Origin: a virus
Direction: 5' to 3' (one strand)
Length of the DNA: 64,000 bases
IMG/VR virus record: IMGVR_UViG_3300009184_000043
Coordinates: 4,745-68,744 of that record
Under the pieces are notes generated by a model, which was not told the DNA's origin, did not search any database, and saw only the letters and a program-made list of their open reading frames with translations. Shown here in pieces: positions 2,657 to 50,137 of the stretch. Each line of letters opens with the position of its first letter. Positions within the stretch are counted from its first letter, which is position 1. The translations under genes and the position numbers were made by a program.

Positions 2657-4303
2657 ATGTCAAGACTAAGCGAATTTGCTGACAAAAAAACAGCAATGCA
2701 AATTTTACAAAACTCCACTTACGGAGCACTAGGAGTGGAGAACTTCATGGGAGGAACATCTTATGTTTTATCGCCTCTAAACACTTTAAAGATTGTTGCT
2801 GCGTCTTCGATCTTTGGTGAACCACAATACTATAGAGACGGATTAGGTGCTCCTAAGAATCTTATCACTATCCTTGACTATTCTATATTAGCTCCTATGT
2901 TCAAATCCGAATCCGGAGCTTTAAAAGACGATATGAGCGTTGTAGATATATTTGAGGAAGCCATACAAGCATCATTGGACTTCGACTTTAAATCAACCTT
3001 GGATTTAGCATTAGAACTTCGTAACGAGTACTATATGCGTTTAAATCCTGCTGTAATATTCATGAAAGCGAGTATGCACGAAGGACGTCAGAAGTTTAAC
3101 GAAGAAAATCCGGGATATATGAAAATGATAGGCAAGTCAATTGCTCTACGTCCAGATGATTTAACAAATCAGTTTGAATACTACATGTATAAGAACGGAA
3201 GCAAAAAAGGACTTTCCTCACTAGTAAAAAGAACTTGGGCAGAAAGACTTTCTGAATTCTCTAGATACCAATTGAATAAGTACAAAGGTAAAAGATTAAT
3301 AGATCTTGTTCGTATTTCCCACGGTAAAAGCGAGGACATTAACGAACTAATGTCAACTGGTACATTAAAAATAACAGAACGGGAAAAAACTTGGGAGAAT
3401 TTAAGATCTGAAAAGAAATCTTGGGAAGAGATCACAAATACTATCTTAATCCCTCACATGGCTCTTTTGAGAAACCTTAGAGGTATTTTTACTGAAGTTG
3501 AAGATCCTACAATTACTGCTAGAATTTTAACACAATTAAAATCGGGTGTTGTTAAGGGAAAACAATTTCCTTTTAGATATTGGTCTGCTTATAGAGCAGT
3601 AACAGATTCTCAGATCCACCACAAACAACTTGTTTTGGATACTTTAGAGGAATGTTTAGATATCTCTGTTGAGAATATGCCTAAGTTAAAAGGTAAAACA
3701 GTTTGTCTTTCAGATAACTCCGGATCTGCATGGGGAGCTTTCAATAGCGAATATGGAACAGTTACCGTGGCAGAAATTGCTAACTTGTCTTCTTTAATTA
3801 CCTCACTACAATCCGATTCTGGAGAGGTTGGAGTATTTGGAGATAACCTTTCATTAAAAGGTGTATCTAAAAGAAACGGTCTTCTTACTCAATTGGATGA
3901 AACATCTAAAAGAGGTAAAGCTCAAGGAGGTGGTACAGAAAATGGTATTTGGGTATTCTTTGATGAAGCTATTAAAAATAAAGTCCATTACGACAACATC
4001 TTTATCTATTCAGATATGCAGGCAGGGCACGGAGGTCTTTTTGGACACAGAGAAACAGTAGGATCAAGTAAATTTATCCACCCGAAAGGAGGGGGAACAC
4101 ACGTAGACGTACTTGCTATGGCTCAGGAATACAGGGAAAAGGTTAATCCTAAAGTTAATTTATTTACTGTACAGGTGGGTGGCTACAATAACACCGTGCT
4201 TCCTGAAGCTCTTTATAGAGGAGGAATATTAGCAGGATGGACAGGTAAAGAACCAATATTTGCTAAAGCAATTATAGACATTTGGGATTCAGTAGAAGCC
4301 TAA
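2657..4303 (+). CDS. Ro60/TROVE-domain RNA-binding protein (Rsr-like)
   Basis: 548 aa; MALLRNL, FPFRYWSAY, vWA MIDAS DNSGS, IYSDMQ, GW near C-terminus. Confidence 0.92.
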   Translation: MSRLSEFADKKTAMQILQNSTYGALGVENFMGGTSYVLSPLNTLKIVAASSIFGEPQYYRDGLGAPKNLITILDYSILAPMFKSESGALKDDMSVVDIFEEAIQASLDFDFKSTLDLALELRNEYYMRLNPAVIFMKASMHEGRQKFNEENPGYMKMIGKSIALRPDDLTNQFEYYMYKNGSKKGLSSLVKRTWAERLSEFSRYQLNKYKGKRLIDLVRISHGKSEDINELMSTGTLKITEREKTWENLRSEKKSWEEITNTILIPHMALLRNLRGIFTEVEDPTITARILTQLKSGVVKGKQFPFRYWSAYRAVTDSQIHHKQLVLDTLEECLDISVENMPKLKGKTVCLSDNSGSAWGAFNSEYGTVTVAEIANLSSLITSLQSDSGEVGVFGDNLSLKGVSKRNGLLTQLDETSKRGKAQGGGTENGIWVFFDEAIKNKVHYDNIFIYSDMQAGHGGLFGHRETVGSSKFIHPKGGGTHVDVLAMAQEYREKVNPKVNLFTVQVGGYNNTVLPEALYRGGILAGWTGKEPIFAKAIIDIWDSVEA

Positions 4304-5199: not shown

Positions 5200-5481
5200 A
5201 TGTCAATTAAAGTCTATACAGGATACGAAGAATTTAAATTTGAGGAAGAAGAGATCTGCGAATATTTAGAATCAGATTTTTCAGATCCAAATCAAGGAGA
5301 AGAATCTGATGATGTATTTTTCTATACAGAATCTAAAATAGATTTTAGAGATGATGCAGATTTCTACATACTATGTGATCTCGAAGATGAAGAGACTGCA
5401 GAAGATATCGCTTCTTACTTAGGTAAGTCTAAAAAAATAAATCTTCAAGATTTCAGAAAATCATTTTTTTATATAAGATAA
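5200..5481 (+). CDS. Hypothetical acidic protein
   Basis: 93-aa ORF 2 nt after the previous stop. Confidence 0.55.
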   Translation: MSIKVYTGYEEFKFEEEEICEYLESDFSDPNQGEESDDVFFYTESKIDFRDDADFYILCDLEDEETAEDIASYLGKSKKINLQDFRKSFFYIR

Positions 5482-5531
5482 AATATCTATATTTGTGAAA
5501 CAAAACAACAAATACGATATATAAAGTTCAA

Positions 5532-5591
5532 ATGAAAACAATATTTAACATATCACCTTCAATATTAAGACCGTCGATAAGACGATCCTAA
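5532..5591 (+). CDS. Attenuator leader peptide 1 (MKTIFNISPSILRPSIRRS)
   Basis: Last 13 codons are only Ile(ATA)/Ser(TCN)/Pro/Leu(TTA)/Arg, matching tRNA array 1. Confidence 0.8.
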   Translation: MKTIFNISPSILRPSIRRS

Positions 5592-5657
5592 AGGTCCTGT
5601 GTTAATAAAAAATAATCATTAACTAAACCGGGACCTTCAAAAAGTCCCGGTTTTTTT
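5591..5657 (+). terminator. Attenuator 1: antiterminator plus intrinsic terminator
   Basis: Terminator AAACCGGGAC/GTCCCGGTTT + T7 (5625-5657); AAGGTCCTG (5591-5599) pairs with CGGGACCTT (5629-5637). Confidence 0.85.
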
Positions 5658-5658
5658 G

Positions 5659-5670
5659 TGTTCTTTGACA
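5659..5670 (+). promoter_or_regulatory. boxA-like antitermination site
   Basis: TGTTCTTTGACA, repeated after all three attenuators. Confidence 0.6.
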
Positions 5671-5687
5671 TGTTGGATTATCAAATT

Positions 5688-5777
5688 GGAGAGTTGGCAG
5701 AGCCCGGTTTAATGCACCAGTCTTGAAAACTGACGTAGTGAAAGCTACCGGGGGTTCGAATCCCTCACTCTCCTCCA
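5688..5777 (+). tRNA. tRNA-Ser(TGA)
   Basis: Cloverleaf, loop CT-TGA-AA, long variable arm, encoded CCA. Confidence 0.93.
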
Positions 5778-5780
5778 ATT

Positions 5781-5852
5781 GCCTCCGTAGTTCAACGGAT
5801 AGAACAGCGGTTTTCTAAACCGTCAATGTGGGTTCGATTCCCGCCGGGGGTA
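5781..5852 (+). tRNA. tRNA-Arg(TCT)
   Basis: Cloverleaf, loop TT-TCT-AA. Confidence 0.9.
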
Positions 5853-5865
5853 CTAAAAAATAAAA

Positions 5866-6024
5866 AGCCCTCTGCCTAGCGCTGGGTATGGATCGAAGAT
5901 AGAATATGCCTCTACAACGTAGACAGTTAGAATATTTCGGTATTCTTTAATGATATGCACACTTATTCTCTAAATCGTGGGTTAGCACAGTTTGTATGTT
6001 CTGGGGATATTTAAAGACATACAA
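5866..6024 (+). ncRNA. Putative structured RNA of unknown class inside tRNA array 1
   Basis: Nested hairpins, e.g. TCTAC/GTAGA, AGAATAT-TTCG-GTATTCT, TTGTATGTT/GACATACAA; no credible ORF. Confidence 0.35.
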
Positions 6025-6027
6025 TTT

Positions 6028-6100
6028 CGGGATGTAGATCAGTTGGTAGATCGCCTGGTTTGGGACCAGGAGGCCCCAGGTTCGAGTCCTGGTATCCCGA
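6028..6100 (+). tRNA. tRNA-Pro(TGG)
   Basis: Cloverleaf, loop TT-TGG-GA. Confidence 0.93.
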
Positions 6101-6108
6101 CAGCCCCA

Positions 6109-6182
6109 AGAGGCTTAGCTCAATTGGTTAGAGCACATGCCTTATACGCATGCGGTCATGGGTTCGACTCCCATAGTCTCTA
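6109..6182 (+). tRNA. tRNA-Ile(TAT)
   Basis: Cloverleaf, CATGC-CT-TAT-AC-GCATG. Confidence 0.88.
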
Positions 6183-6186
6183 CTTA

Positions 6187-6260
6187 GGTCCTTTAGCTCA
6201 GTAGGTTAGAGCAACTGACTCATAATCAGTAGGTCCACGGTTCGAGCCCGTGAGGGACCA
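6187..6260 (+). tRNA. tRNA-Ile2(CAT, lysidine type)
   Basis: CAT anticodon with Ile2-like body (GGTCCTT acceptor, ACTGA stem); initiator and elongator Met tRNAs are present elsewhere. Confidence 0.78.
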
Positions 6261-6276
6261 CAAAAATTACACATTC

Positions 6277-6360
6277 GCCCGGGTGGTGGAATTGGTAGTC
6301 ACGCAGCACTTAAAATGCTGTAACCATTTGGTTGTACGGGTTCGATTCCCGTCCCGGGTA
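6277..6360 (+). tRNA. tRNA-Leu(TAA)
   Basis: Cloverleaf, loop CT-TAA-AA, long variable arm. Confidence 0.93.
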
Positions 6361-6365
6361 CATAT

Positions 6366-6470
6366 ATAAGAGTGGCGGAAGTGTGATCATTGCAATGATC
6401 CGATAGATAGACGCTAGGGTAATCTACCCGAGAATGAAAGTTCATATTGGTGCAAGTCCAATCTCTTGTA
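6366..6470 (+). ncRNA. tRNA-like RNA with D-loop hairpin insertion and degenerate anticodon arm
   Basis: ATAAGAG/CTCTTGT acceptor; GCG/CGC D stem; insert GATCATTGCAATGATC; T arm ATTGG-TGCAAGT-CCAAT. Confidence 0.55.
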
Positions 6471-6492
6471 CTTTTTTGTTGATATATACTAT

Positions 6493-7344
6493 ATGCCAAC
6501 ATCAAGACCTTTCGCATATAATCCAACACAAGCAACAATTTCAGGAACTACAAACGTAGGTACATTATGTGTAGGTGTATCTGCTTTAAACTATGGTGCA
6601 AAACCCGGGGGATTAACTTGGTGGATGGGTCCAGACGAGGATAATTCTTATATAATAGCTAAAGATGTACCCTCTGGAAACTTTCCAACTCAAGTAGGTA
6701 ATATAGGCACTGTACAATTCTGGGGATGTACTAATACAGATGAAGCTTTTCGAATTACAGTACAAATAATAAGCGGTACTACACAAGCATCTGCTTCAGC
6801 AGCTAATGATTGGTTAACAGCAAATAACTATTGGACTAACAGAAATCCATATCTTGCAGGTTTATATAAGACGACTTACTCTGGGTATTTTGCTGATAAT
6901 GTTAGTTTCTTTGCAACTGCGACTCCCGCATCGGTAGGTGGAAATCCGGCAACATCAGTACAAACCACTTCTATATTTGAACCTTCTCAGAATGATGGAG
7001 AAAATTTCAGTTGTCAATGGTTAGGATATTTCAAACCAACCACCACAGAAACCTACACATTCTTTACTTCATCTGATGATGCCTCCTATGTTTGGGTTGG
7101 TAGTAATGCTGTTAGTGGATTCACTACAACAAACTCAACAGTTAATAACGGTGGATTACACGGTACAATCGAAAAATCTGGGACAATCGCTTTAACTTCG
7201 GGTGTTTATTATCCTATAAGAATACAATTTGGAGAGTTGAGTGGTGGTGACGTAATGACATTTAATTACTCAACTCCTACTATTACTAAAACGACTAATG
7301 TAACTGGATTGGTTTTCTATAATACATCAACTAATGGATTCTAA
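6493..7344 (+). CDS. PA14-domain carbohydrate-binding virion protein
   Basis: NFSCQWLGYF, YTFFTSSDDAS, YYPIRIQFGE PA14 motifs; start moved to MPTSRPF behind GATATATA 6481. Confidence 0.8.
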   Translation: MPTSRPFAYNPTQATISGTTNVGTLCVGVSALNYGAKPGGLTWWMGPDEDNSYIIAKDVPSGNFPTQVGNIGTVQFWGCTNTDEAFRITVQIISGTTQASASAANDWLTANNYWTNRNPYLAGLYKTTYSGYFADNVSFFATATPASVGGNPATSVQTTSIFEPSQNDGENFSCQWLGYFKPTTTETYTFFTSSDDASYVWVGSNAVSGFTTTNSTVNNGGLHGTIEKSGTIALTSGVYYPIRIQFGELSGGDVMTFNYSTPTITKTTNVTGLVFYNTSTNGF

Positions 7345-7447
7345 TTGGATAATTAGATATATAGAATGGATAAAAAACCTTGGAAGATATTATTGGGGTA
7401 CCTGATAGAATAGATCACTTTAAGGAGTATTATAACTTAATAAAATA

Positions 7448-8290
7448 ATGGAAGAGTATAAATTAAATGAATACAATGAGTTATTAATTAATTTTGTAAT
7501 TGATGTAACTGATGAATACGGTAGCACTACCACACAACCTGCTAACCCAGAGACAGGTGTAACTGTTATGGTTGGGTTGGTAGCTTTATTATCTAGGAGT
7601 GGTTTAAATGAAGCGGAACCAGTACTTAATTCTAAAACACCTAGTATAATAGATTCAACTGATTATTTATCAAAACAGTCCTCAAGGGTAAATGAACAAG
7701 GACAAGCTGTTATTAACTTAGATAAAACTTTTCTTTCTACTGAAGCATATAGATTCTACCAAAACTATTATCAAAAGTATACAATAGCACTTAAAATTGT
7801 TATCGAAGTACCAAAAAGTGAAATATATGCTTCTTCAATTACTTCAGATAATATATTAGTTGAATGGACTGTTTCTAAATATTTACAATTTGATTCAATC
7901 AATTACTCAGAATACAATGACGACATATATCTGGAGTCGGCGGGAAATAATATCGTTGACTTTGTACAACTTCGTTCAACTTTAAAAACAGCTGAGGAGA
8001 GCTATCTTTTGATTAAAAAAAGATACGATTCTGAATTATTAGCCAGTACTACAGACTTAGAATTACCAATAAGTGCTGTATATGAGCCTGCTTCATTTTC
8101 ACAAGTAATTACACGCTTACTTGAGTTTCAAGAAGGGACATTACTACCAGGATTATCTCATGCTGAAAAATTAAATTTAGATGTTGAATATAAAAGATTA
8201 GACACTATTAACAAGCTAATTAATATAGTAACTGGTATGTATTCTGAGATCACTATTGAAGATGGAGAAGGAATGCCTTATAGTGGATAA
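7448..8290 (+). CDS. Hypothetical protein
   Basis: 280-aa ORF. Confidence 0.6.
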   Translation: MEEYKLNEYNELLINFVIDVTDEYGSTTTQPANPETGVTVMVGLVALLSRSGLNEAEPVLNSKTPSIIDSTDYLSKQSSRVNEQGQAVINLDKTFLSTEAYRFYQNYYQKYTIALKIVIEVPKSEIYASSITSDNILVEWTVSKYLQFDSINYSEYNDDIYLESAGNNIVDFVQLRSTLKTAEESYLLIKKRYDSELLASTTDLELPISAVYEPASFSQVITRLLEFQEGTLLPGLSHAEKLNLDVEYKRLDTINKLINIVTGMYSEITIEDGEGMPYSG

Positions 8291-8324
8291 AATATTAGAT
8301 ATATAGATTAAATAAAAAAAAGAA

Positions 8325-8603
8325 ATGAAACACCTTAAAAAATATCAAGATAACAATTCCAAAATTAACGAAGGATTTTGGGATTCACTTTTCGGAAAAC
8401 CCACAGTTGACGATGCTGCTCACGATTCTCTTAGAGGTCAAGGATGGAGCCACAGGGGTAAGGACGAAGAAAACTATATCATGTTCCAGGGACAAAAATT
8501 TTATCCAGAGCAAATTCAATATGATGATGCTTATTCAACTAAACAAATACCAAGAGTAGAAGGAGATATGTTAATTGTAGCTAATCCAGCTTGGAGCATG
8601 TAA
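8325..8603 (+). CDS. Hypothetical protein with capsid-targeting-like N-terminus
   Basis: MKHLKKYQD...INE; GATATATA 8298. Confidence 0.6.
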   Translation: MKHLKKYQDNNSKINEGFWDSLFGKPTVDDAAHDSLRGQGWSHRGKDEENYIMFQGQKFYPEQIQYDDAYSTKQIPRVEGDMLIVANPAWSM

Positions 8604-8621
8604 AAAATTAAATATAAAAAA

Positions 8622-9317
8622 ATGAAAATTAAAAGATTCAACGATTTTATTCTAGAAAATCAATATTACAATCCTATTAACGAATCCGATATCGTACCAG
8701 GTGTACCTTATAATTTGGGTACCGATAGATCTGATAAGCTAGGTAACATGAAAGCTAATATAATGACGGTTGATACAAATAGTAATGACACAATTATTGG
8801 CTTTAGTAAAGGTGGTGAAAGTCCTAAAAGTGTATCAATTTACTTTCCTTCCTCTAATTATGCTGATAAGAAGACTCCCCCTGAATTAAAGCAGGGAAAA
8901 TCATACGCTTACATATATGAAAGAGTCGATGGGGATGATAGGTATCCTGCAGCAATTACTAAAATGGAAGATTTTGACGCAGATAAATCCAGCGGTCAAT
9001 TATATAATGCTTCAAATTCTATAGATCTACTTGCAAATTTTATGGAAAGATCCGGTATTTGCATCGATTCTACTGCAGGCACAAATCTAGCAAAAGTTAT
9101 AACTACTCTTCTATTGTCTCCTACTTATAATACTACGGTAACTGATACATTTAAAAAATTCGCGAAGAAGATCAGTAAAGAAATTACAATAAAAGGATTC
9201 ATTCCTAAAATGGCCAAACAGTTTGGTGATAGCGGAACTAAACAAGATCCAGGAATGAAATCATTCGTAGAAGAATTTCCAAAAAGTTATGCTGCTCTTT
9301 CCCCTAAAAAAGCATAA
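8622..9317 (+). CDS. Hypothetical protein with capsid-targeting-like N-terminus
   Basis: MKIKRFNDFILE. Confidence 0.6.
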   Translation: MKIKRFNDFILENQYYNPINESDIVPGVPYNLGTDRSDKLGNMKANIMTVDTNSNDTIIGFSKGGESPKSVSIYFPSSNYADKKTPPELKQGKSYAYIYERVDGDDRYPAAITKMEDFDADKSSGQLYNASNSIDLLANFMERSGICIDSTAGTNLAKVITTLLLSPTYNTTVTDTFKKFAKKISKEITIKGFIPKMAKQFGDSGTKQDPGMKSFVEEFPKSYAALSPKKA

Positions 9318-9336
9318 GGGTGTGAAACATTAAACT

Positions 9337-9366
9337 AAAAAGCCAGCTATATAGCTGGCTTTTTTT
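9337..9366. terminator. Bidirectional intrinsic terminator
   Basis: AAAAAGCCAGCTATATAGCTGGCTTTTTTT between convergent genes. Confidence 0.85.
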
Positions 9367-9877
9367 ATTGCTCTTTATATTCAGATATGGAGCATATCTT
9401 GTTATAATGCCATCCAACCATATATTCTCTATAGAATACGCCATCTTTGAATAGAGTATAAATCTCTTGGACAGTTCCATCGTCCTGAGTTTGAACCTCA
9501 TATTCATATCTGTCGTATCTTACCTGTTTAAGGAAACTATCGTAATATGAATCTACTGTGCTCTTTATCATAATTGGCTCATATAGCATATCGTCTTCTG
9601 TATAAAGATCCCATTCCACACCGGGAGCAAAAACTCCAATATAGCTTTCATCCTTCTTAGTAATAAATTTTTTCCATAGCTTAGGATTCCCTACTACGCT
9701 TAAGAATTTACCTCTTAGTTCCGGTTGATCGTAAAATGGATAGTAAGCATCGCCTCTCAATTTGCTAGCTCCAGCCATTGTGTTGTTGAAAGATTCTATG
9801 CCTTCATTCTGCGATAAAGCGGTTACACTTGTTCCTAGTATGAATAGGAAAATAAATGCTAATTTTAGATTTTTCAT
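9365..9877 (-). CDS. Secreted/periplasmic hypothetical protein
   Basis: N-terminal signal peptide MKNLKLAFIFLFILGTSVTALSQ. Confidence 0.65.
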   Translation of the reverse strand: MKNLKLAFIFLFILGTSVTALSQNEGIESFNNTMAGASKLRGDAYYPFYDQPELRGKFLSVVGNPKLWKKFITKKDESYIGVFAPGVEWDLYTEDDMLYEPIMIKSTVDSYYDSFLKQVRYDRYEYEVQTQDDGTVQEIYTLFKDGVFYREYMVGWHYNKICSISEYKEQ

Positions 9878-10016
9878 AGATCATTGTATTATTGTTACAG
9901 ATTCAAATATAGATCAGAAATATAGATAATTCCAGATGATTTCACATTTTTATTTTTTTTAATAGAAACTTTTTTGTACTTTTGAGGTATATAATAAAAA
10001 AAGAACAAAGCTTTCA

Positions 10017-10106
10017 ATGAAACACTTTTTAAATATCGCAATAGATTTTCAACTTCATAAAGAAGATGACCTTCTAGAGGATACAATTAAGTGTCAGAGG
10101 AAATAA
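10017..10106 (+). CDS. Attenuator leader peptide 2 (MKHFLNIAIDFQLHKEDDLLEDTIKCQRK)
   Basis: Run GAA GAT GAC CTT CTA GAG GAT matches the Glu/Asp/Leu(TAG) tRNAs of array 2. Confidence 0.8.
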   Translation: MKHFLNIAIDFQLHKEDDLLEDTIKCQRK

Positions 10107-10156
10107 ATTTATATAACGATATAATTTAAACCTCTGATAACCTCAGAGGTTTTTTT
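10092..10156 (+). terminator. Attenuator 2: antiterminator plus intrinsic terminator
   Basis: Terminator AAACCTCTGA-TAACC-TCAGAGGTTT + T run (10128-10156); TGTCAGAGG (10092-10100) pairs with CCTCTGATA (10131-10139). Confidence 0.85.
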
Positions 10157-10164
10157 GTTTTATA

Positions 10165-10176
10165 TGTTCTTTGAAA
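10165..10176 (+). promoter_or_regulatory. boxA-like antitermination site
   Basis: TGTTCTTTGAAA. Confidence 0.6.
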
Positions 10177-10180
10177 TTAC

Positions 10181-10252
10181 GCTGCCATCGTCTAACGGTT
10201 AGGACCTATGGTTTTCATCCATAAAATCGGAGTTCGATTCTCCGTGGCAGTA
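10181..10252 (+). tRNA. tRNA-Glu(TTC)
   Basis: Cloverleaf, loop TT-TTC-AT. Confidence 0.92.
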
Positions 10253-10263
10253 CAAAAAATTAA

Positions 10264-10338
10264 GGTCCCGTAGTTAAACGGCTATAATGCTGCCCTGTCA
10301 CGGCAGAGTTCGGAGTTCGATTCTCCGCGGGACCGCCA
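10264..10338 (+). tRNA. tRNA-Asp(GTC)
   Basis: Cloverleaf, loop CT-GTC-AC, G73, CCA. Confidence 0.93.
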
Positions 10339-10343
10339 TATAT

Positions 10344-10416
<73 letters not shown>

Positions 10417-10420
10417 CTAA

Positions 10421-10499
10421 GCCCAGGTGGTGAAATGGTATACACGCTAGATTTAGGATCTAGTGCGAAAGCGTGAGGGTTCGAGTCCCTCCCTGGGTA
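10421..10499 (+). tRNA. tRNA-Leu(TAG)
   Basis: Cloverleaf, loop TT-TAG-GA, variable arm. Confidence 0.93.
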
Positions 10500-10501
10500 C
10501 T

Positions 10502-11071
10502 ATGAAAATTATATTTTTAGATCATGATGGAGTAATTTGTCTTTCCCAACAATTTGGAGGACGTTACAAAAAGCAGGCTAAAGCTAGAAAAAAGCTTTCG
10601 CAGGATGTAATGAGTTTTCATGTAGGAGCTAGATTTGATAACTTCGACAAGAAAGCAATAAAGGTTTTAAATTTAATTCTAGAAGAGACTGGAGCTGAAA
10701 TAGTTGTTTCTTCAGATTGGAAGGTCTGGGCAACAATAGAGGAAATGGGAGAATACTATGAACAACAAGGAATAATTAAAAAACCTATAGATTTCACACC
10801 AAGAGAATATCCTTACACAGAAAACCAAGAATGGCATCCAGACTGGGATTTAGAAGCATCAAGAACTTTAGAAATCCAAGAATGGTTAAAGGCCCATTCC
10901 GGAGTTACTCATTGGGTAGCAATAGATGATTTAGATATGAGCTTTAAAGAAGTATCTAATAATAGAAGCGGTACTGGATGGGGATTAACAAACTTTGTAC
11001 ACACTCCTAGCATTATGCAAGGGATTAAGCAATCAGGAATAAAAGAAAAAGTTTTAAAATTTTTGAAATAA
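10502..11071 (+). CDS. HAD-superfamily phosphatase, Swiss-army-knife RNA-repair type
   Basis: IIFLDHDGV, IVVSSDW, WVAIDD motifs; start moved to ATG 10502 because the GTG start lies inside tRNA-Leu. Confidence 0.8.
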   Translation: MKIIFLDHDGVICLSQQFGGRYKKQAKARKKLSQDVMSFHVGARFDNFDKKAIKVLNLILEETGAEIVVSSDWKVWATIEEMGEYYEQQGIIKKPIDFTPREYPYTENQEWHPDWDLEASRTLEIQEWLKAHSGVTHWVAIDDLDMSFKEVSNNRSGTGWGLTNFVHTPSIMQGIKQSGIKEKVLKFLK

Positions 11072-11152
11072 TTTGAAAAACATTTTTTTATTTAAAAAAG
11101 ATATTGTACTTTTACGAAACTATTCTGGAAACAGGATATATAATAAAGAAAA

Positions 11153-11260
11153 ATGAAAAACTGTAGTAAACATAACATCAATCGCATGATCAGTCAGATT
11201 AATGGCTGCTATCAAACGGTGGCGTTTTGGGCAAAGGGGAAAGAACCCGATCGAAGCTAA
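11153..11260 (+). CDS. Attenuator leader peptide 3 (MKNCSKHNINRMISQINGCYQTVAFWAKGKEPDRS)
   Basis: First 30 codons use exactly the 16 amino acids of tRNA array 3 and no others. Confidence 0.82.
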   Translation: MKNCSKHNINRMISQINGCYQTVAFWAKGKEPDRS

Positions 11261-11323
11261 TACAGAAAATCATATTTAGATATTTCGGAAAAGGCTTTGA
11301 TTCACATCAAAGCCTTTTTTTTT
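11249..11323 (+). terminator. Attenuator 3: antiterminator plus intrinsic terminator
   Basis: Terminator AAAAGGCTTTGAT-TCAC-ATCAAAGCCTTTT + T run (11289-11323); GATCGAAGCT (11249-11258) pairs with GGCTTTGATT (11293-11302) using G:U pairs. Confidence 0.82.
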
Positions 11324-11334
11324 GTTCTTTGACA
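11323..11334 (+). promoter_or_regulatory. boxA-like antitermination site
   Basis: TGTTCTTTGACA. Confidence 0.6.
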
Positions 11335-11348
11335 TACTGGAAAAAAAT

Positions 11349-11421
11349 GGTACCGTAGCTCAGTTGGTAGAGCACTAGACTGAAAATCTAGGTGTCGCCG
11401 GTTCGATTCCGGCCGGTACCA
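11349..11421 (+). tRNA. tRNA-Phe(GAA)
   Basis: Cloverleaf, loop CT-GAA-AA. Confidence 0.94.
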
Positions 11422-11491
11422 CAATACTAAACAAGAAATTGTCTCACTAAACTAATCATGTTTAGTATTACAAAAACAAGTTTAGTAAAAT

Positions 11492-11564
11492 GATCTCGTA
11501 GCTCAGCTGGTAGAGCACCGCACTTTTAATGCGGGAGTCGAGGGTTCGAGCCCCTCCGGGATCA
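11492..11564 (+). tRNA. tRNA-Lys(TTT)
   Basis: Cloverleaf, loop CT-TTT-AA. Confidence 0.94.
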
Positions 11565-11570
11565 CTATAC

Positions 11571-11643
11571 ACATCGGTAGCTCAGTTGGTAGAGCACCAG
11601 TCTCCAAAACTGGGTGTCGTAGGTTCGAGTCCTACCCTTTGTG
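11571..11643 (+). tRNA. tRNA-Trp(CCA)
   Basis: Cloverleaf, loop CT-CCA-AA; two acceptor mismatches (ACATCGG/CCTTTGT). Confidence 0.82.
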
Positions 11644-11651
11644 CAAAATAA

Positions 11652-11724
11652 GGCTCTATAGTTCAATGGATTAGAATAGATCACTACGGATGATCTGATC
11701 CTGGTTCGAATCCAGGTGGAGCCT
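11652..11724 (+). tRNA. tRNA-Arg(ACG)
   Basis: Cloverleaf, loop CT-ACG-GA. Confidence 0.92.
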
Positions 11725-11735
11725 CAAATAAATAA

Positions 11736-11807
11736 GGTCGTGTGGTCGAGTGGTTTAGGCACTAGTCTGCAAAACTAGTTATACTGGTTCGATTCCAGTC
11801 ACGACCT
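11736..11807 (+). tRNA. tRNA-Cys(GCA)
   Basis: Cloverleaf, loop CT-GCA-AA, U73. Confidence 0.93.
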
Positions 11808-11824
11808 CAAAAAAATTTAAAAAT

Positions 11825-11962
11825 ATGACGATAGAAAGCAGAATAGTAGCAAGAGGAAGTTTCCCCTCTAGTAAAGAAAACTTAAGAAGAGAAACAATAA
11901 AATTTAAACACACCGAAAGATTGATAAAAAGAATCAGAAGGTTAATTAAAAAAGGAAAGTAA
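11825..11962 (+). CDS. Small basic ORF (45 aa) inside tRNA array 3
   Basis: MTIESRIVARGSFPSSKENLRRETIKFKHTERLIKRIRRLIKKGK; fills the spacer; stop overlaps tRNA-Ser 5' end. Confidence 0.45.
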   Translation: MTIESRIVARGSFPSSKENLRRETIKFKHTERLIKRIRRLIKKGK

Positions 11963-12039
11963 TCTCAGATGGTGACGGGGCTCGCCTGCTAAGCGAAGCG
12001 TACTTTAATTGGTATTTGGTTCGATTCCAATTCTTTCCG
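11954..12039 (+). tRNA. tRNA-Ser(GCT)
   Basis: Loop CT-GCT-AA, long variable arm, G73; atypical D arm. Confidence 0.78.
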
Positions 12040-12045
12040 CAACAT

Positions 12046-12122
12046 TGACATATAGCTCAGTTGGTTAGAGCGTTGATCTGATACGTCAAAGGCCGAAGGT
12101 TCGAATCCTTCTATGTCAACCA
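12046..12122 (+). tRNA. tRNA-Ile(GAT)
   Basis: Cloverleaf, loop CT-GAT-AC, CCA. Confidence 0.92.
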
Positions 12123-12127
12123 CATTT

Positions 12128-12200
12128 AGTCTCTTAGCTCAGTTGGTAGAGCGTTTGGTTTACATCCAAAATGTCGGGGGTTCGAATCCCTCAGGGACTA
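12128..12200 (+). tRNA. tRNA-Val(TAC)
   Basis: Cloverleaf, loop TT-TAC-AT. Confidence 0.92.
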
Positions 12201-12202
12201 CA

Positions 12203-12291
12203 AGATTAGAAGCGGTGAAAGGGGTTACTTCGATCAAAACCTTGTAATTTTTTGACCAAAAAAACCACCCCGTTCAAATATTCTCTAATCT
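12203..12291 (+). ncRNA. Y RNA-like element 4, between tRNA-Val and tRNA-Asn
   Basis: AGATTAGA/TCTAATCT; AGCGG; TGAAAGGGGT/ACCCCGTTCA; TACTTC; same architecture as elements 1-3. Confidence 0.65.
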
Positions 12292-12296
12292 AAACT

Positions 12297-12369
12297 GGGG
12301 ATGTAGCTCAGCGGTAGTAGCAACTGACTGTTAATCAGTAGGTCATAGGTTCGAATCCTATCATCCCCG
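12297..12369 (+). tRNA. tRNA-Asn(GTT)
   Basis: Cloverleaf, loop CT-GTT-AA, G73. Confidence 0.92.
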
Positions 12370-12374
12370 CACTT

Positions 12375-12459
12375 CGGAGTGTTGAGCAATTGGTTGCTCA
12401 GCTGACTGTAAATCAGCCGCCTTACGGCATTGGGGGTTCGAATCCCTCCGCTCCGACCA
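12375..12459 (+). tRNA. tRNA-Tyr(GTA)
   Basis: Loop CT-GTA-AA, long variable arm, CCA; C1:G72 pair. Confidence 0.9.
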
Positions 12460-12462
12460 AAT

Positions 12463-12537
12463 GCAGGTATCGTATAACGGTCATTACTTCTGACTTCCAA
12501 TCAGAAGATCTCGGTTCGATTCCGGGTACCTGCTCCA
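12463..12537 (+). tRNA. tRNA-Gly(TCC)
   Basis: Cloverleaf, loop CT-TCC-AA, U73, CCA. Confidence 0.93.
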
Positions 12538-12611
12538 GTGGGATTAGCTCAGCTGGCTAGAGCACTTGCCTTGCACGCAAGGGGTCAACGGTTCGAATCC
12601 GTTATCCTCCA
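12538..12611 (+). tRNA. tRNA-Ala(TGC)
   Basis: Loop CT-TGC-AC; G3:U70 identity pair. Confidence 0.92.
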
Positions 12612-12620
12612 CTTTTATAT

Positions 12621-12693
12621 GGCGAGTTAGCTCAGCTGGTAGAGCGTCGGAATCATACCCCGAAGGTCGGCAGTTCGAACCTGCCACTCGCTA
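12621..12693 (+). tRNA. Elongator tRNA-Met(CAT)
   Basis: GGCGAGT acceptor, loop AT-CAT-AC. Confidence 0.82.
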
Positions 12694-12695
12694 CT

Positions 12696-12769
12696 GTGAC
12701 GGTAGCTCAGTTGGTTAGAGCGTCTGATTGTGGTTCAGAAGGTCGGGAGTTCGATTCTCCTCTGTCACC
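12696..12769 (+). tRNA. tRNA-His(GTG)
   Basis: Loop TT-GTG-GT, C73; encoded -1 base is T. Confidence 0.9.
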
Positions 12770-12773
12770 TATT

Positions 12774-12846
12774 GCCTTTGTAGCTCAGCTGGTAGAGCGC
12801 TTCATTTGTAATGAAGATGTCGCAGGTTCGATCCCTGTCAAAGGCT
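12774..12846 (+). tRNA. tRNA-Thr(TGT)
   Basis: Cloverleaf, loop TT-TGT-AA. Confidence 0.93.
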
Positions 12847-12852
12847 CTATAA

Positions 12853-12925
12853 TGTCCTGTGGTGTAATTGGCAACACGTCTGATTTTGATTCAGAAGAGT
12901 CCAGGTTCGAGCCCTGGCGGGACAT
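12853..12925 (+). tRNA. tRNA-Gln(TTG)
   Basis: Cloverleaf, loop TT-TTG-AT, U1:A72. Confidence 0.92.
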
Positions 12926-12948
12926 CTAAAAAATAAGATATATAGGTC

Positions 12949-13677
12949 ATGATGATCCTAAAATATTCTGAATTTATTAACGAGAGTAATAGGGAAGAAT
13001 ACATAAAAAATTATTGCAAAGAATCCCCTGTTATTCCACAGGTTCCTGTGTCTTTTAAAAAAATACATGGTGATCTAATTAAAGTGGGAAAATACAAAGA
13101 GACGTTAAAATCTATTGATAATGGTGATGCAGTAATAGTAGGAATAAGAAGAAAATTGGAAGCTAGAAAGAATGGTCAAGAAAAATATATTGACAGTATT
13201 TATTTTATACCAAAGAATGCAAAAAAAGAAAATCCTAATATTACACCATTCCAAGCCACCACAGTTCCTTCTGTCGCTTGGTTCGATACCGATGTAGCAA
13301 TTTTGGATGATTCTGAATATAAATTTAAGATCGGAACTCACACTTTTGGATCGTCGAATAAAACAATACCTGCTTTGGTTCCTAGTATTGATGGATTATC
13401 TCCAAAGGAAATACCAGTAAATAGATTTTCAGCAAAAGACAACGTGGTAAAAACATATGATCCACCAAAAAAAGATATAGGAACTGGTACAAATTTTCAT
13501 TATGGGTTATCTCCTAAAGGTGTAGATGGATCTTCTGGTATACCCTGTGTTGGTGGATATTCTGCTGGATGTCAAGTAATTCCGACAGAAAAAAAATGGA
13601 ACGAATTTTGGAATTTAGTAAAAAATTCAAAACAACAAATCTTTTGGTATTCTATTATCGAAGAAGATAAATTATAA
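12949..13677 (+). CDS. Putative L,D-transpeptidase-like (YkuD-type) cell-wall enzyme
   Basis: NFH...YSAGCQV His/Cys motif; capsid-targeting-like start ILKYSEFINE. Confidence 0.55.
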   Translation: MMILKYSEFINESNREEYIKNYCKESPVIPQVPVSFKKIHGDLIKVGKYKETLKSIDNGDAVIVGIRRKLEARKNGQEKYIDSIYFIPKNAKKENPNITPFQATTVPSVAWFDTDVAILDDSEYKFKIGTHTFGSSNKTIPALVPSIDGLSPKEIPVNRFSAKDNVVKTYDPPKKDIGTGTNFHYGLSPKGVDGSSGIPCVGGYSAGCQVIPTEKKWNEFWNLVKNSKQQIFWYSIIEEDKL

Positions 13678-14276: not shown

Positions 14277-15341
14277 ATGCTATTTGACTTTGACGATATT
14301 CTTATCGAACCAGAAATGCACACGGGAATACTTTCAAGAAAGAAAGTAGATCCTTTCGACGAGAAACAAATGCTTCCCCTTTTTACAGCTCCAATGGACA
14401 CAGTAATCAGTATGGATAATTATGAAGTTTTTAACTCTCATAAAATATACAGCATTATTCCTAGAAAAATAGAATACGAATTAACAGATATCTCATTAGA
14501 TCATAATGTCTGGTTCTCTTATGGTTTAGATGATTTTAAGAGACTTTTTATTGATAATCAGGCTAACATACCTCTAGGTCGAAAAGCGTACGCCTTAATT
14601 GATATAGCGAACGGACACATGAGGATTGTAAAGGAATTGCTAGAACAATCTAAGGAAATCTACGGAAGAAATCTAGTTATTATGGTTGGCAATTGTGCTA
14701 ACCCTTTAACATATCTTTCTTTAGCACAATCAGGAGCTGATTATGTTAGAATGGGAATAGGAAACGGAGCAGGATGTTTAACAACTGTACAAACGGGTGT
14801 TGGTTATCCTATGGCTTCTTTGATTCACGAAACTGCAAAAATCCAGCAGGAAAGAAATCTTTCAGCCAAGATCGTAGCAGACGGTGGATTTAAAAAATAT
14901 GCTGACGTGATTAAGGCATTAGCTTTAGGAGCTGATTACGTGATGCTTGGAAGTATTTTTAATAAAGCTCTAGAAAGCTGCGGTGAAACATTCGAAGCTA
15001 ATAAAAAATATGATTCTTGGACAGAGCCAGGAGATAAAGTAGATCAATACTCTTTTGATACACTAATCCAATTTGAAGCAGGAAAGAAATTCTATAAGAA
15101 GTTTAGAGGTATGTCAACTAAGGAAGTACAAAAGAGTCTAGGAAAAAAAGATTTGAAAACATCCGAAGGAATTAGTAAAATGCAACCCGTCGAATACACG
15201 CTTGGAGGATGGGCTGAAAATTTTAAAGATTATTTAAAATCTGCTATGAGTTATACTGATTGTCTAACGATCGGGGAATTTATTGGCAAAGTAAAGTTCA
15301 ATAAAATTTCTAAAAATTCTATGGAAAGATACTCCAAATAG
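14277..15341 (+). CDS. GMP reductase / IMP dehydrogenase family protein
   Basis: APMDTV, DIANGH, GIGNGAGCLT, ADGG, FRGMST, SEG motifs; no CBS domains. Confidence 0.88.
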   Translation: MLFDFDDILIEPEMHTGILSRKKVDPFDEKQMLPLFTAPMDTVISMDNYEVFNSHKIYSIIPRKIEYELTDISLDHNVWFSYGLDDFKRLFIDNQANIPLGRKAYALIDIANGHMRIVKELLEQSKEIYGRNLVIMVGNCANPLTYLSLAQSGADYVRMGIGNGAGCLTTVQTGVGYPMASLIHETAKIQQERNLSAKIVADGGFKKYADVIKALALGADYVMLGSIFNKALESCGETFEANKKYDSWTEPGDKVDQYSFDTLIQFEAGKKFYKKFRGMSTKEVQKSLGKKDLKTSEGISKMQPVEYTLGGWAENFKDYLKSAMSYTDCLTIGEFIGKVKFNKISKNSMERYSK

Positions 15342-49547: not shown

Positions 49548-50137
49548 AGCCTTTTAAAGATCAATTTGAAGATTATAAATTAAATGTTTCGGGATTATCA
49601 TCGCTAGCGGAGGAATCTTTTATGTTCTGGTTTAAAAATTTTGTAAACCAAAAGAGTCAATTCAATCCTCAAGGTTTTTTACCCGGTAAATTTTATTCTT
49701 TTGAGTACGATGACGTATTGGAGAAGAATAAGAAATTCATAAATAAAAGACCAGTTATATTTTTTACTGGATTTATGAATTATGAGAATAAGCAGGCTTT
49801 TAGTGGTGTAGATATAATATTAATGCCTCCTATTTTTAGATTAGCATTTTTTTCAAGGATACAATCTGTTTATCAGGATTTAATAGAATCTAATATGAAA
49901 AAAATAGAAAGCGGAGAATCGAGGGGACAGATCCCGCTTAAAACCGATTACGAAACTTTTGATGTTATTATGAAGGGGATACCTTATAAAAATACATATA
50001 GAGTATGGGATTTAAAAAAAGTTCGCGATGTAATGGAAATTCCCTACGAAGATTGGACTAGAATAATATATCTACATACTCGGTCAATTCAAGGGACCCC
50101 GATAGAAGAGATATATACTAAAAACTCAAAGATCTAA
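49544..50137 (+). CDS. DNA end protector (gp2-like)
   Basis: PGKFYSFEY...P.I; position after the gp4-like gene. Confidence 0.55.
   Translation: MKPFKDQFEDYKLNVSGLSSLAEESFMFWFKNFVNQKSQFNPQGFLPGKFYSFEYDDVLEKNKKFINKRPVIFFTGFMNYENKQAFSGVDIILMPPIFRLAFFSRIQSVYQDLIESNMKKIESGESRGQIPLKTDYETFDVIMKGIPYKNTYRVWDLKKVRDVMEIPYEDWTRIIYLHTRSIQGTPIEEIYTKNSKI

What the first reader, a model, noticed from the sequence alone, without database searches (positions are those of the whole stretch)
10017..10176. Attenuator 2: Glu/Asp/Leu(CTN) sensor
Seen: the 29-aa leader has GAA GAT GAC CTT CTA GAG GAT (10062-10082), seven consecutive codons all served by the downstream Glu-TTC, Asp-GTC and Leu-TAG tRNAs. TGTCAGAGG in the last codons duplicates the terminator's 3' arm and pairs with CCTCTGATA. 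The array also holds initiator tRNA. Inference: failure to initiate on the leader would also leave the antiterminator free, so loss of tRNA-fMet may be sensed too.
Basis: partly seen in the sequence, partly recalled or inferred. Interest (0 to 1): 0.85.

Follow-up and report, generated by a model that had tools for sequence, protein, structure and literature searches.

The report
Codon-matched attenuator gating phage tRNAs
A 29-codon "test" gene and a switchable transcription stop sit in front of four phage tRNA genes (Glu, Asp, initiator Met, Leu), so the phage probably makes these tRNAs only when ribosomes read Glu, Asp and Leu codons slowly, a control I found no paper describing for tRNA genes.

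Summary
At 10017-10106 a 29-codon ORF lies between a Bacteroidota-type promoter motif and an intrinsic terminator (10128-10156). A boxA-like box and the array tRNA-Glu/Asp/initiator-Met/Leu(UAG) follow. Codons 16-22 (10062-10082) belong to that array, but CTT counts only if Leu-UAG reads it. TGTCAGAGG (10092-10100) pairs with the terminator's 5' arm.

A modelled stalled ribosome leaves this antiterminator free up to the last codon of the run and masks it two codons later. Attenuators 1 and 3 show the same boundary.

Across 25 leader families from related phage contigs, leader codons match their own downstream tRNAs far better than swapped tRNA sets do (z about 8; 0 of 20,000 permutations). The match is frame-specific and follows synonymous codon boxes. 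Cultured Cellulophaga phage phi4:1 has the same layout.

Best reading (about 0.8): a ribosome-mediated attenuator that sets array transcription by tRNA supply. A co-transcribed RNA-repair HAD gene may be controlled too.

There are no expression data.

Eight literature searches found no description. This scan has already reported the same kind of element on this genome (attenuator 3) and on at least eight other genomes.

The parts
9977..9984 (+). promoter-like -7 motif TACTTTTG (Bacteroidota TAnnTTTG type), 40 nt before the leader ATG
   Evidence: Sequence read. TAnnTTT[G/A] lies 10-75 nt before the ATG in 16 of 25 family representatives, against 2 of 25 control segments. The consensus itself is recalled. 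The upstream gene 9365-9877 is on the minus strand, so this is the only candidate promoter for the array.
10017..10106 (+). leader ORF, 29 codons plus TAA
   Evidence: It is conserved in 7 distinct homologues, and the ORF indels are 12 nt and 3 nt. The codon match to the array is specific to this frame across families: 52.9% against about 30% in the two shifted frames. The second codon is AAA, as in 14 of 25 family representatives.
10012..10027 (+). region 1: pairs with 10089-10102 in the untranslated RNA and covers the start codon
   Evidence: Pair list. The pairing is worth 7.9 kcal/mol.
10062..10082 (+). regulatory run GAA GAT GAC CTT CTA GAG GAT
   Evidence: These are the last seven A-site positions at which a stalled ribosome (mask A-15..A+13) leaves 6-9 antiterminator pairs. 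The count falls to 4 at 10083 and to 0 from 10086 to the stop.
10092..10100 (+). region 2: 5' strand of the antiterminator (TGTCAGAGG), inside the last five codons
   Evidence: In L006/L007 it changes together with both terminator arms.
10128..10156 (+). intrinsic terminator: 5' arm 10128-10137, loop 10138-10142, 3' arm 10143-10152, T-run 10150-10156. Positions 10131-10139 form the 3' strand of the antiterminator
10165..10176 (+). boxA-like box TGTTCTTTGAAA
   Evidence: GTTCTTTGA follows all three attenuators. The E. coli rrn boxA is UGCUCUUUA (passage in PMC2724277). In 5 of 8 bacterial loci examined, the same box lies just before the 16S or 23S rRNA gene.
10181..10500 (+). regulated tRNA array: Glu(ttc), Asp(gtc), initiator-like Met(cat), Leu(tag)
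10502..11071 (+). 189-aa HAD_SAK_2 (RNA-repair HAD) gene that starts 2 nt after tRNA-Leu, so probably in the same transcript
   Evidence: Pfam PF18143, E 7.6e-22. There is no room for a promoter. Co-transcription is inferred.

Best explanation
This is a ribosome-mediated (leader-peptide) transcription attenuator that controls a phage tRNA operon.

Proposed course of events:
1. Host RNA polymerase starts about 30 nt before the leader ATG.
2. A ribosome translates the 29-codon leader while the polymerase approaches the terminator.
3. If Glu, Asp and Leu(CTN) codons are decoded quickly, the ribosome reaches the last codons or the stop. There it covers TGTCAGAGG, the terminator hairpin forms, and transcription ends at 10150-10156.
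4. If charged tRNA-Glu, tRNA-Asp or tRNA-Leu is scarce, the ribosome stalls in the run at 10062-10082. TGTCAGAGG stays free and pairs with the 5' arm of the terminator.
5. The polymerase then reads on through a boxA-like element, which is inferred to load Nus factors and make the complex termination-resistant.
6. It transcribes tRNA-Glu, Asp, initiator Met and Leu, and probably the adjoining RNA-repair HAD gene.

The product tRNAs relieve the stall, so the unit acts as a negative-feedback controller of tRNA supply. Such a controller would also respond to loss of host tRNAs during infection.

Shown here: the anatomy, the alternative pairings, the geometry, and the codon-to-tRNA match with its conservation. 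Inferred: translation of the leader, actual termination and read-through, the boxA function, and the physiological trigger.
For: Anatomy:
- The promoter motif, ORF, terminator, box and tRNAs follow each other with no space for another promoter. The upstream gene is on the other strand.
- The leader RNA is more structured than all 200 shuffles.
- MFE folds of growing transcripts give the classical succession 1:2, then 2:3, then 3:4 in all three attenuators of the window.

Geometry:
- With a 29-nt ribosome mask, the array-matched run ends exactly where a stall stops permitting the antiterminator. This holds in att2 and in att1 and att3.
- In 14 families with a clear antiterminator, 205 of 286 codons in the permissive zone match the array, against 41 of 117 in the masked zone (OR 4.7, p 1.4e-11).

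Codon-to-tRNA match, using 25 leader families drawn from 106 units in phage contigs:
- 368 of 696 leader codons are read by the unit's own array. The null from permuted arrays is 233 +/- 17, z 7.9, with 0 of 20,000 permutations as high. The longest matched run averages 7.9 codons against 3.0.
- The match is specific to the reading frame.
- It follows synonymous codon boxes for Leu, Arg, Ser and Ile: [[15,3],[11,48]], OR 21.8, p 1e-6.

Antiterminator:
- Its pairing with the terminator's 5' arm beats shuffles in 15 of 25 families. The pairing is centred a median 16 nt before the end of the stop codon.

att2 family:
- 7 distinct homologues keep a D-(L/R)-L-(V)-E-D core.
- ORF indels are 12 nt and 3 nt long, while indels in the spacer are 1 nt and 2 nt.
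- L006/L007 change region 2 and both terminator arms together.

Within the window:
- Each leader matches its own array best relative to background: L1 13 of 18, L2 9 of 28, L3 31 of 34.

Cultured phage:
- Cellulophaga phage phi4:1 has the leader MKIQRLHLQELEQPIISGGTGV. Eleven consecutive codons are read by the seven tRNAs that follow (Pro, Glu, Gln, His, Leu, Leu, Arg).
- A second leader precedes its next array.
Against: - There are no expression data. No RNA run holds the stretch.
- Leader 2 is the weakest of the three matches: 9 of 28 codons against 18.3% expected (P 0.056). Under strict wobble it is 7 of 28 with a longest run of 3.
- 16 of 28 leader-2 codons are served by array 3. Stalls there would also open attenuator 2, so specificity is not exclusive.
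- In relatives the run is interrupted or shortened. L002 has CGT inside it, L019 and L249 lack four codons, and L006 and L007 carry AAT and GTG.
- Five of the seven homologues have an identical region 2 and terminator. Covariation within this family therefore rests on one event.
- The full-length RNA favours the terminator by 5.9 kcal/mol, so the switch has to be kinetic.
- Units were detected through the boxA-like motif, and two of the three locus searches used that motif. The sample is therefore not a random draw of phage tRNA arrays.
- Within-family tracking of array changes is weak: 74 more, 31 fewer, 161 equal, and the pairs are not independent.
Confidence: 0.8

Rival explanations
1. It is a general translation-capacity gauge rather than a codon-specific sensor. 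The antiterminator is the default state, and only a ribosome that has run to the end of the leader in time causes termination. Any slowing would then open the gate, including failed initiation through loss of initiator tRNA.
For: - At the decision window the naked RNA favours 2:3 by 8.0 kcal/mol.
- The 1:2 helix is made of short segments of 4, 3 and 5 pairs.
- The array holds an initiator-like tRNA.
- 16 of 28 leader codons belong to another array.
Against: - Region 2 is first paired with the start region, a pairing worth 7.9 kcal/mol. In the trp model this gives termination without translation.
- A non-specific gauge would not need the strong codon-box-specific and frame-specific match across families, nor a matched run that ends at the masking boundary.
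- The internal-ATG analysis was uninformative.
Confidence: 0.1
2. It is a plain terminator that merely damps a strong promoter, beside a chance or vestigial short ORF. Under this reading there is no switch.
For: - The terminator is thermodynamically favoured in the full transcript.
- The overall codon enrichment of leader 2 is only marginal.
- There are no expression data.
Against: - The ORF is kept in 7 homologues, with indels in multiples of three.
- The region 2 pairing is significant and covaries.
- A run of 7 has P 1.3e-4.
- The family-wide statistics argue against chance.
- The same build precedes all three arrays of the window and the arrays of a cultured phage.
Confidence: 0.05
3. The short ORF encodes a functional small peptide, and the hairpin ends its own mRNA. 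The tRNAs would be made from another start.
For: A similar small ORF in Cellulophaga phage phi4:1 is annotated as a hypothetical protein, gp075.
Against: - Only 24 nt, filled by the boxA-like box, separate the T-run from tRNA-Glu, so there is no room for a promoter.
- Leader peptides of different families are unrelated in sequence, yet each tracks its own array.
- The C-terminal codons are dictated by RNA pairing.
Confidence: 0.03

Closest known systems
Multivalent leader-peptide attenuators of amino-acid operons (trp and his; thr leader with Thr+Ile; ilvGMEDA leader with Ile/Leu/Val). Recalled knowledge; a modelling paper appeared in the listing (PMC1183508, abstract only seen)
   Same: Both have a short translated leader with clustered regulatory codons. 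Both have overlapping 1:2, 2:3 and 3:4 hairpins and an intrinsic terminator. In both, a ribosome at the end of the leader masks the antiterminator, and several amino acids are sensed by one leader.
   Different: The regulated genes here are the tRNAs that read the regulatory codons, not biosynthetic enzymes. The loop therefore closes on the tRNA itself. The match follows isoacceptor codon boxes. The element is phage-borne and followed by a boxA-like element. No Rfam leader model matches.
pheM leader attenuator of the E. coli pheST operon (recalled)
   Same: Leader-peptide attenuation governs a gene of the translation apparatus in response to decoding of cognate codons.
   Different: The output there is an aminoacyl-tRNA synthetase and only one amino acid is sensed. 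Here the output is a tRNA array.
T-box riboswitches (recalled)
   Same: A terminator/antiterminator switch reports tRNA status.
   Different: T-boxes bind uncharged tRNA directly and need no ORF. No T-box match was found here, and this element depends on a translated ORF.
Anabaena sp. PCC 7120 L-array trn operon (PMC8421152; passages read)
   Same: A supernumerary tRNA array is silent by default and induced when translation is impaired. RNA-repair genes are linked to it (rtcB there, a HAD_SAK_2 gene here).
   Different: [quoted passage not shown] The terms attenuat, leader and terminator do not occur in that paper's text.
rrn boxA / Nus-factor antitermination (PMC2724277; passages read)
   Same: The box TGTTCTTTGAAA resembles rrn boxA UGCUCUUUA. 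In Bacteroidota genomes the same box lies before the 16S and 23S genes.
   Different: Here it lies directly after a regulated terminator and before a phage tRNA array. Binding of NusB/NusE was not tested.

Membership tests
Ribosome-mediated (leader-peptide) transcription attenuator | Short ORF with a start codon directly after the promoter, kept as a reading frame | tested here: met
   The ORF lies at 10017-10106. There are 7 homologues with ORF indels of 12 nt and 3 nt. The codon match is frame-specific.
Ribosome-mediated (leader-peptide) transcription attenuator | Clustered regulatory codons cognate to what the operon supplies | tested here: met
   Run of 7 codons at 10062-10082, P 1.3e-4 if Leu-UAG reads CTT. 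Under strict wobble the run splits into 3+3. Family-wide z is 7.9. The synonymous-box test gives p 1e-6.
Ribosome-mediated (leader-peptide) transcription attenuator | Intrinsic terminator between the leader and the regulated genes, with no other promoter | tested here: met
   Stem of 10 pairs plus T7 at 10128-10156. Only 24 nt remain before tRNA-Glu.
Ribosome-mediated (leader-peptide) transcription attenuator | Antiterminator that excludes the terminator and is masked by a ribosome at the end of the leader | tested here: met
   Positions 10092-10100 pair with 10131-10139. There are 9 pairs with the A-site up to 10077, 7 at 10080 and 0 from 10086. 15 of 25 families are significant. All of this is in silico.
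Ribosome-mediated (leader-peptide) transcription attenuator | Anti-antiterminator (1:2) that gives termination when the leader is not translated | tested here: inconclusive
   The 1:2 pairing exists and is worth 7.9 kcal/mol, but 2:3 is favoured by 8.0 kcal/mol once the 5' arm is out.
Ribosome-mediated (leader-peptide) transcription attenuator | Read-through rises when the cognate charged tRNA is limiting | not testable with these tools
   No RNA run holds the stretch. Reporter assays or term-seq are needed.
Rfam leader families (Thr, His, Trp, Leu, Phe leaders and others) | Match to a covariance model at its gathering score | tested here: not met
   No match at E <= 1 overlaps 10017-10176. 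The best leader-type matches in the region are sub-threshold and lie elsewhere: Thr_leader, 25.7 bits against a gathering score of 55, at 5538-5660.
T-box riboswitch | Match to the T-box model (specifier loop and T-box sequence) | tested here: not met
   No T-box match in 5300-13000 at E <= 1.
rrn-type boxA | Sequence like UGCUCUUUA, and the same box in the rrn leader and spacer of the host phylum | tested here: met
   7 of 9 positions agree with the E. coli rrn boxA. The box lies about 105 nt before 16S in L270. It lies 40-100 nt before 23S in L293, L268, L352 and L366, which makes 5 of 8 loci examined. It precedes tRNA genes in L335 and L281. Nothing was found near it in L343.
rrn-type boxA | Binds NusB/NusE and confers termination resistance | not testable with these tools
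   No tool is available for this.

The most novel reading that the evidence does not exclude
Attenuator 2 is one module of a widespread, unpublished tRNA-damage response of Bacteroidota phages. These range from huge phages to cultured Cellulophaga phages. Each tRNA array is autoregulated by a leader spelled in its own codon boxes and then locked into read-through by boxA. This particular module would also report loss of initiator tRNA, through failed leader initiation, and would co-induce an RNA-repair phosphatase. It would thus work as an on-demand counter-measure to host anticodon nucleases or to decay of the tRNA pool.
Probability: 0.3. Interest if true: 0.95.

Novelty: new variant of a known kind. 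Interest (0 to 1): 0.85.

Why it matters
Why phages carry tRNA arrays, and how they control them, is an open question. Codon-usage matching and replacement of tRNAs lost to host defences or to host shut-off are the current ideas.

A leader-peptide attenuator spelled in the array's own codons would show that the phage measures decoding speed and supplies tRNAs on demand. It would also extend a textbook mechanism to a new class of target, namely the sensed molecule itself.

The idea is directly testable, because a cultured phage-host pair carries the same layout (Cellulophaga baltica and phage phi4:1). The leaders could also be used to predict which tRNAs a phage expects to lose, and as compact codon-specific sensors in Bacteroidota.

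Tried and rejected
- Expression: the look-up of sequencing runs listed 24 DNA holders and no RNA holder.
- Rfam: no known leader, T-box or other cis-regulatory family lies on 10017-10176.
- First clustering of leader peptides: it collapsed all 64 leaders into one family because the identity measure was too lax. It was redone with stricter scoring.
- Within-family tracking of tRNA gain and loss by leader codons: 74 more, 31 fewer and 161 equal. The pairs are not independent and some arrays are cut by locus ends. I count this only as a weak trend.
- Internal ATG codons against the type of CAT tRNA in the array: 3.7% with an elongator or Ile2 type, 3.5% with no CAT tRNA, 1.3% with an initiator only. 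This is uninformative for Met sensing.
- The count of structure pairs on alignment A1 was not run. Five of the seven sequences are identical in region 2 and the terminator, and MAFFT offset the L006/L007 arm by an indel.
- The box as a promoter -7 element: rejected. No -33 element fits, the distance to the tRNA varies (8, 21 and 18 nt), and the same box lies between tRNA-Ala and 23S in bacterial rrn operons.
- Antisense ORF 9895-10086 (63 aa, TTG start): treated as chance. The codon match is specific to the plus-strand frame.
- Pro codons in the L006/L007 leaders beside a Pro tRNA further down: not counted as tracking, because those codons form region 2.
- Literature: eight searches found no paper on leader-peptide attenuation of tRNA genes. 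One search was aimed at boxA. Most subscription journals are not in the library, and supplements were not opened.

Full report
**Setting**

The window is 64 kb of a single 68.7-kb contig with 35% G+C. Its portal protein is at most 44% identical to those of uncultured huge phages and Prevotella Lak phages. It is therefore a fragment of a large phage that probably infects Bacteroidota. Related IMG/VR contigs reach 150-320 kb.

ARAGORN finds 25 tRNA genes in three arrays. An Rfam tRNA-Sec match at 11953-12039 scores 36.6 bits, below the gathering score of 47. It probably marks a 26th gene, a tRNA-Ser(GCU).

**The observation**

The ORF at 10017-10106 encodes MKHFLNIAIDFQLHKEDDLLEDTIKCQRK. Codons 16-22 (10062-10082) are GAA GAT GAC CTT CTA GAG GAT. 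The array that follows holds Glu(ttc), Asp(gtc), Met(cat) and Leu(tag).

- The CAT tRNA at 10344-10417 has a C1-U72 mismatch, GGG/CCC in the anticodon stem and A11-U24. That these features mark initiator tRNAs is recalled.
- A terminator with 10 stem pairs, a 5-nt loop and seven T lies at 10128-10156.
- TGTCAGAGG (10092-10100) repeats part of the 3' arm. It pairs with CCTCTGATA (10131-10139) in 9 pairs.
- The leader folds with z -4.9 against shuffles.

One qualification is needed. CTT is read by Leu-UAG only if U34 reads the whole four-codon box.

- Under that rule the run is 7 codons. A run of 7 or more has P 1.3e-4 for a 28-codon ORF drawn from this genome's codon usage.
- Under strict wobble the run is 3+3.
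- CTT is enriched like CTA in leaders that precede Leu-tag arrays, which favours the whole-box rule.

Overall, leader 2 matches its array in 9 of 28 codons against 18.3% expected (P 0.056). It is the weakest of the three leaders of this window. Leader 1 matches 13 of 18 and leader 3 matches 31 of 34.

**The same build three times**

All three arrays are preceded by the same series of elements:

1. a TAnnTTT[G/A] motif;
2. a short ORF;
3. a segment at the end of the ORF that can pair with the terminator's 5' arm;
4. an intrinsic terminator;
5. the box GTTCTTTGA;
6. the tRNAs.

For array 2 the upstream gene is on the other strand. Only 24 nt, filled by the box, separate the T-run from tRNA-Glu. 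The array can therefore be transcribed only through the terminator.

**Alternative structures and geometry**

MFE folds of growing transcripts show three stages in all three units. Region 2 is first paired upstream. It pairs with the 5' arm once that arm is complete. The terminator forms once the 3' arm is out.

I then masked a ribosome footprint from A-15 to A+13. This footprint size is recalled and was fixed before I saw the results.

- In attenuator 2 the antiterminator keeps 6-9 pairs with the A-site at any codon up to GAT at 10080. It keeps 4 pairs at 10083 and none from 10086 to the stop. The Glu/Asp/Leu run thus fills the last seven positions where a stall still allows antitermination.
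- Attenuators 1 and 3 behave alike.

**Comparative evidence**

Loci came from three searches:

- the window's HAD protein against IMG/VR (80 loci);
- the box as a DNA pattern against IMG/VR (stopped at 120 stretches, 82 stretches);
- the box as a DNA pattern against bacterial genomes (stopped at 120 stretches).

A script defined a unit by four criteria. It needed a T-run plus a [CT]TTTGA box within 70 nt before a tRNA, a hairpin before the T-run, and an ATG ORF of 10-45 codons ending near the hairpin. Codon content played no part in this definition.

This gave 106 units and 65 distinct leader peptides. The 64 viral ones fell into 25 families. About five of these look like false units, and I kept them.

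- **Permutation of arrays.** 368 of 696 leader codons are read by the unit's own array under strict wobble. Permuting arrays among families gives 233 +/- 17 (z 7.9; 0 of 20,000). Under the box rule the figures are 405 against 258 +/- 18.
- **Reading frame.** In the two shifted frames the match falls to about 30%.
- **Synonymous boxes.** For Leu, Arg, Ser and Ile, leaders use the synonymous box whose tRNA is in the array. The table is [[15,3],[11,48]], OR 21.8, p 1e-6. The match is therefore to tRNAs, not only to amino acids.
- **Antiterminator.** The pairing between the leader and the terminator's 5' arm beats shuffles in 15 of 25 families. It is centred a median 16 nt before the end of the stop codon, although the sequences differ.
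- **Position of matched codons.** In 14 families with a clear antiterminator, matched codons concentrate where a stall leaves it free: 205 of 286 against 41 of 117 (p 1.4e-11).
- **Translation signals.** 16 of 25 representatives have the promoter motif 10-75 nt before the ATG, against 2 of 25 controls. 14 of 25 have AAA as second codon.

Striking cases, all:

- MKNTLYSSLYASLGTG precedes Tyr, Ser, Ser, Leu, Leu, Ala.
- MKNLFHTTTSSSTSTSSCDEDT... precedes Ser, Ser, Thr, Cys, His, Thr, Ser, Glu, Asp.

**The att2 family**

Seven distinct homologues keep LNI...QL...D(L/R)L(V)ED.

- ORF indels are 12 nt and 3 nt long, while indels in the spacer are 1 nt and 2 nt.
- In L006 and L007, region 2 and both terminator arms change together (CAGAG/CTCTG/CAGAG to CCGAG/CTCGG/CCGAG).
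- The run itself is not strictly kept. L002 has CGT inside it, and L019 and L249 lack four codons.

**A cultured example**

Cellulophaga phage phi4:1 (NC_021788.1) has a leader MKIQRLHLQELEQPIISGGTGV followed by a terminator. Eleven consecutive codons of this leader are read, under strict wobble, by the seven tRNAs that follow.

A second leader overlaps the annotated gene gp075. It precedes Ala, Lys, Ile, Gly, Met, Asp, Thr, Val, Arg(tct), Met and Tyr, and it is spelled almost wholly in those amino acids. No boxA-like box follows the first of these terminators.

**The box**

E. coli rrn boxA is UGCUCUUUA (PMC2724277, passage read). The window has UGUUCUUUG. Eight bacterial loci were examined.

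- In five of them the box lies about 105 nt before 16S (L270) or 40-100 nt before 23S, after the spacer tRNAs (L293, L268, L352, L366).
- In two it precedes tRNA genes (L335, L281).
- In one nothing was found near it (L343).

I read the box as a boxA that makes the polymerase termination-resistant once the attenuator has been passed. That function is inferred.

**What the unit controls**

The 189-aa gene at 10502-11071 starts 2 nt after tRNA-Leu. It matches HAD_SAK_2, the HAD domain of RNA-repair proteins (E 7.6e-22). It is probably co-transcribed with the array, which would link the unit to tRNA repair. This link is inferred.

**The initiator-tRNA idea**

Without a ribosome, region 2 is first paired with the start-codon region, a pairing worth 7.9 kcal/mol. 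At the decision window 2:3 is favoured by 8.0 kcal/mol. In the full transcript the terminator is favoured by 5.9 kcal/mol.

The ATG knockout decides this.

**Comparison with known systems**

The element works like the multivalent leader-peptide attenuators of amino-acid operons. It matches no Rfam leader or T-box model.

Its target is new. The regulated genes are the tRNAs that read the regulatory codons.

The nearest functional analogue that I read is the Anabaena tRNA L-array. That array is induced by translational stress through promoter repeats, not by attenuation (PMC8421152).

Eight literature searches found no description of leader-peptide attenuation of tRNA genes. The library lacks most subscription journals.

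**Earlier notes of this scan**

The same kind of element was reported for attenuator 3 of this genome and for at least eight other phage genomes. I treat these notes as leads only. Everything above was computed here.

**Verdict**

The attenuator reading is supported, with confidence about 0.8. The initiator-tRNA extension remains open. The element is a new variant of a known kind and is of high interest.

Noticed in passing
window 10502-11071: A HAD_SAK_2 (RNA-repair HAD phosphatase) gene starts 2 nt after the last tRNA of array 2 (Pfam E 7.6e-22). It has 298 relatives in IMG/VR, usually beside tRNA arrays.
   Followed up: partly
window 5532-5591 and 11153-11260: Attenuators 1 and 3 have the same build. 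Their array-matched runs end exactly where a stalled ribosome would begin to mask the antiterminator.
   Followed up: partly
window 11953-12039: A probable tRNA-Ser(GCU) missed by ARAGORN (Rfam tRNA-Sec model, 36.6 bits, below the gathering score of 47). Leader 3 contains AGT and AGC codons.
   Followed up: no
window 11825-11962: A 45-aa, very basic ORF (MTIESRIVARGS...KKGK) lies inside array 3, between tRNA-Cys and the probable tRNA-Ser.
   Followed up: no
window 2657-4303: A 548-aa protein with a TROVE (Ro60-like) domain (Pfam E 6.7e-9) lies upstream of the tRNA region. Earlier scan notes mention Y-RNA-like elements beside it.
   Followed up: no
L384 (Cellulophaga phage phi4:1, NC_021788.1) 2214-2282 and 3174-3257: A cultured phage carries codon-matched leaders and terminators before its tRNA arrays. 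The second leader overlaps the annotated hypothetical gene gp075.
   Followed up: partly
L335 6300-6720 (Winogradskyella sp., 766-kb contig): A chromosomal tRNA array is preceded by a short ORF, a terminator hairpin and the same box. GGGAGA near the end of the ORF could pair with the hairpin's 5' arm. The codon match is not obvious, and the region may be a prophage or a cellular counterpart.
   Followed up: partly
L281 (Flavobacteriales MAG), about 110 nt before its tRNA-Thr: A TACATTTG promoter motif is followed at once by a hairpin, a T-run, the box and tRNA-Thr, with no leader ORF.
   Followed up: no
L308, L313, L330, L337, L343, L351 (Emticicia agri): The box with identical flanks recurs on six contigs of one genome. 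In the one copy that was scanned, L343, Rfam found no rRNA or tRNA within 8 kb. It looks like a repeated element of unknown kind.
   Followed up: no
window 6493-7344 and 14277-15341: A GLEYA/PA14-domain protein lies directly after array 1, and an IMPDH/GMP-reductase-like gene lies after array 3.
   Followed up: no
window 50137-51756: The portal-like protein is at most 44% identical to those of uncultured huge phages (LR756500-LR756504) and Prevotella Lak phages.
   Followed up: no
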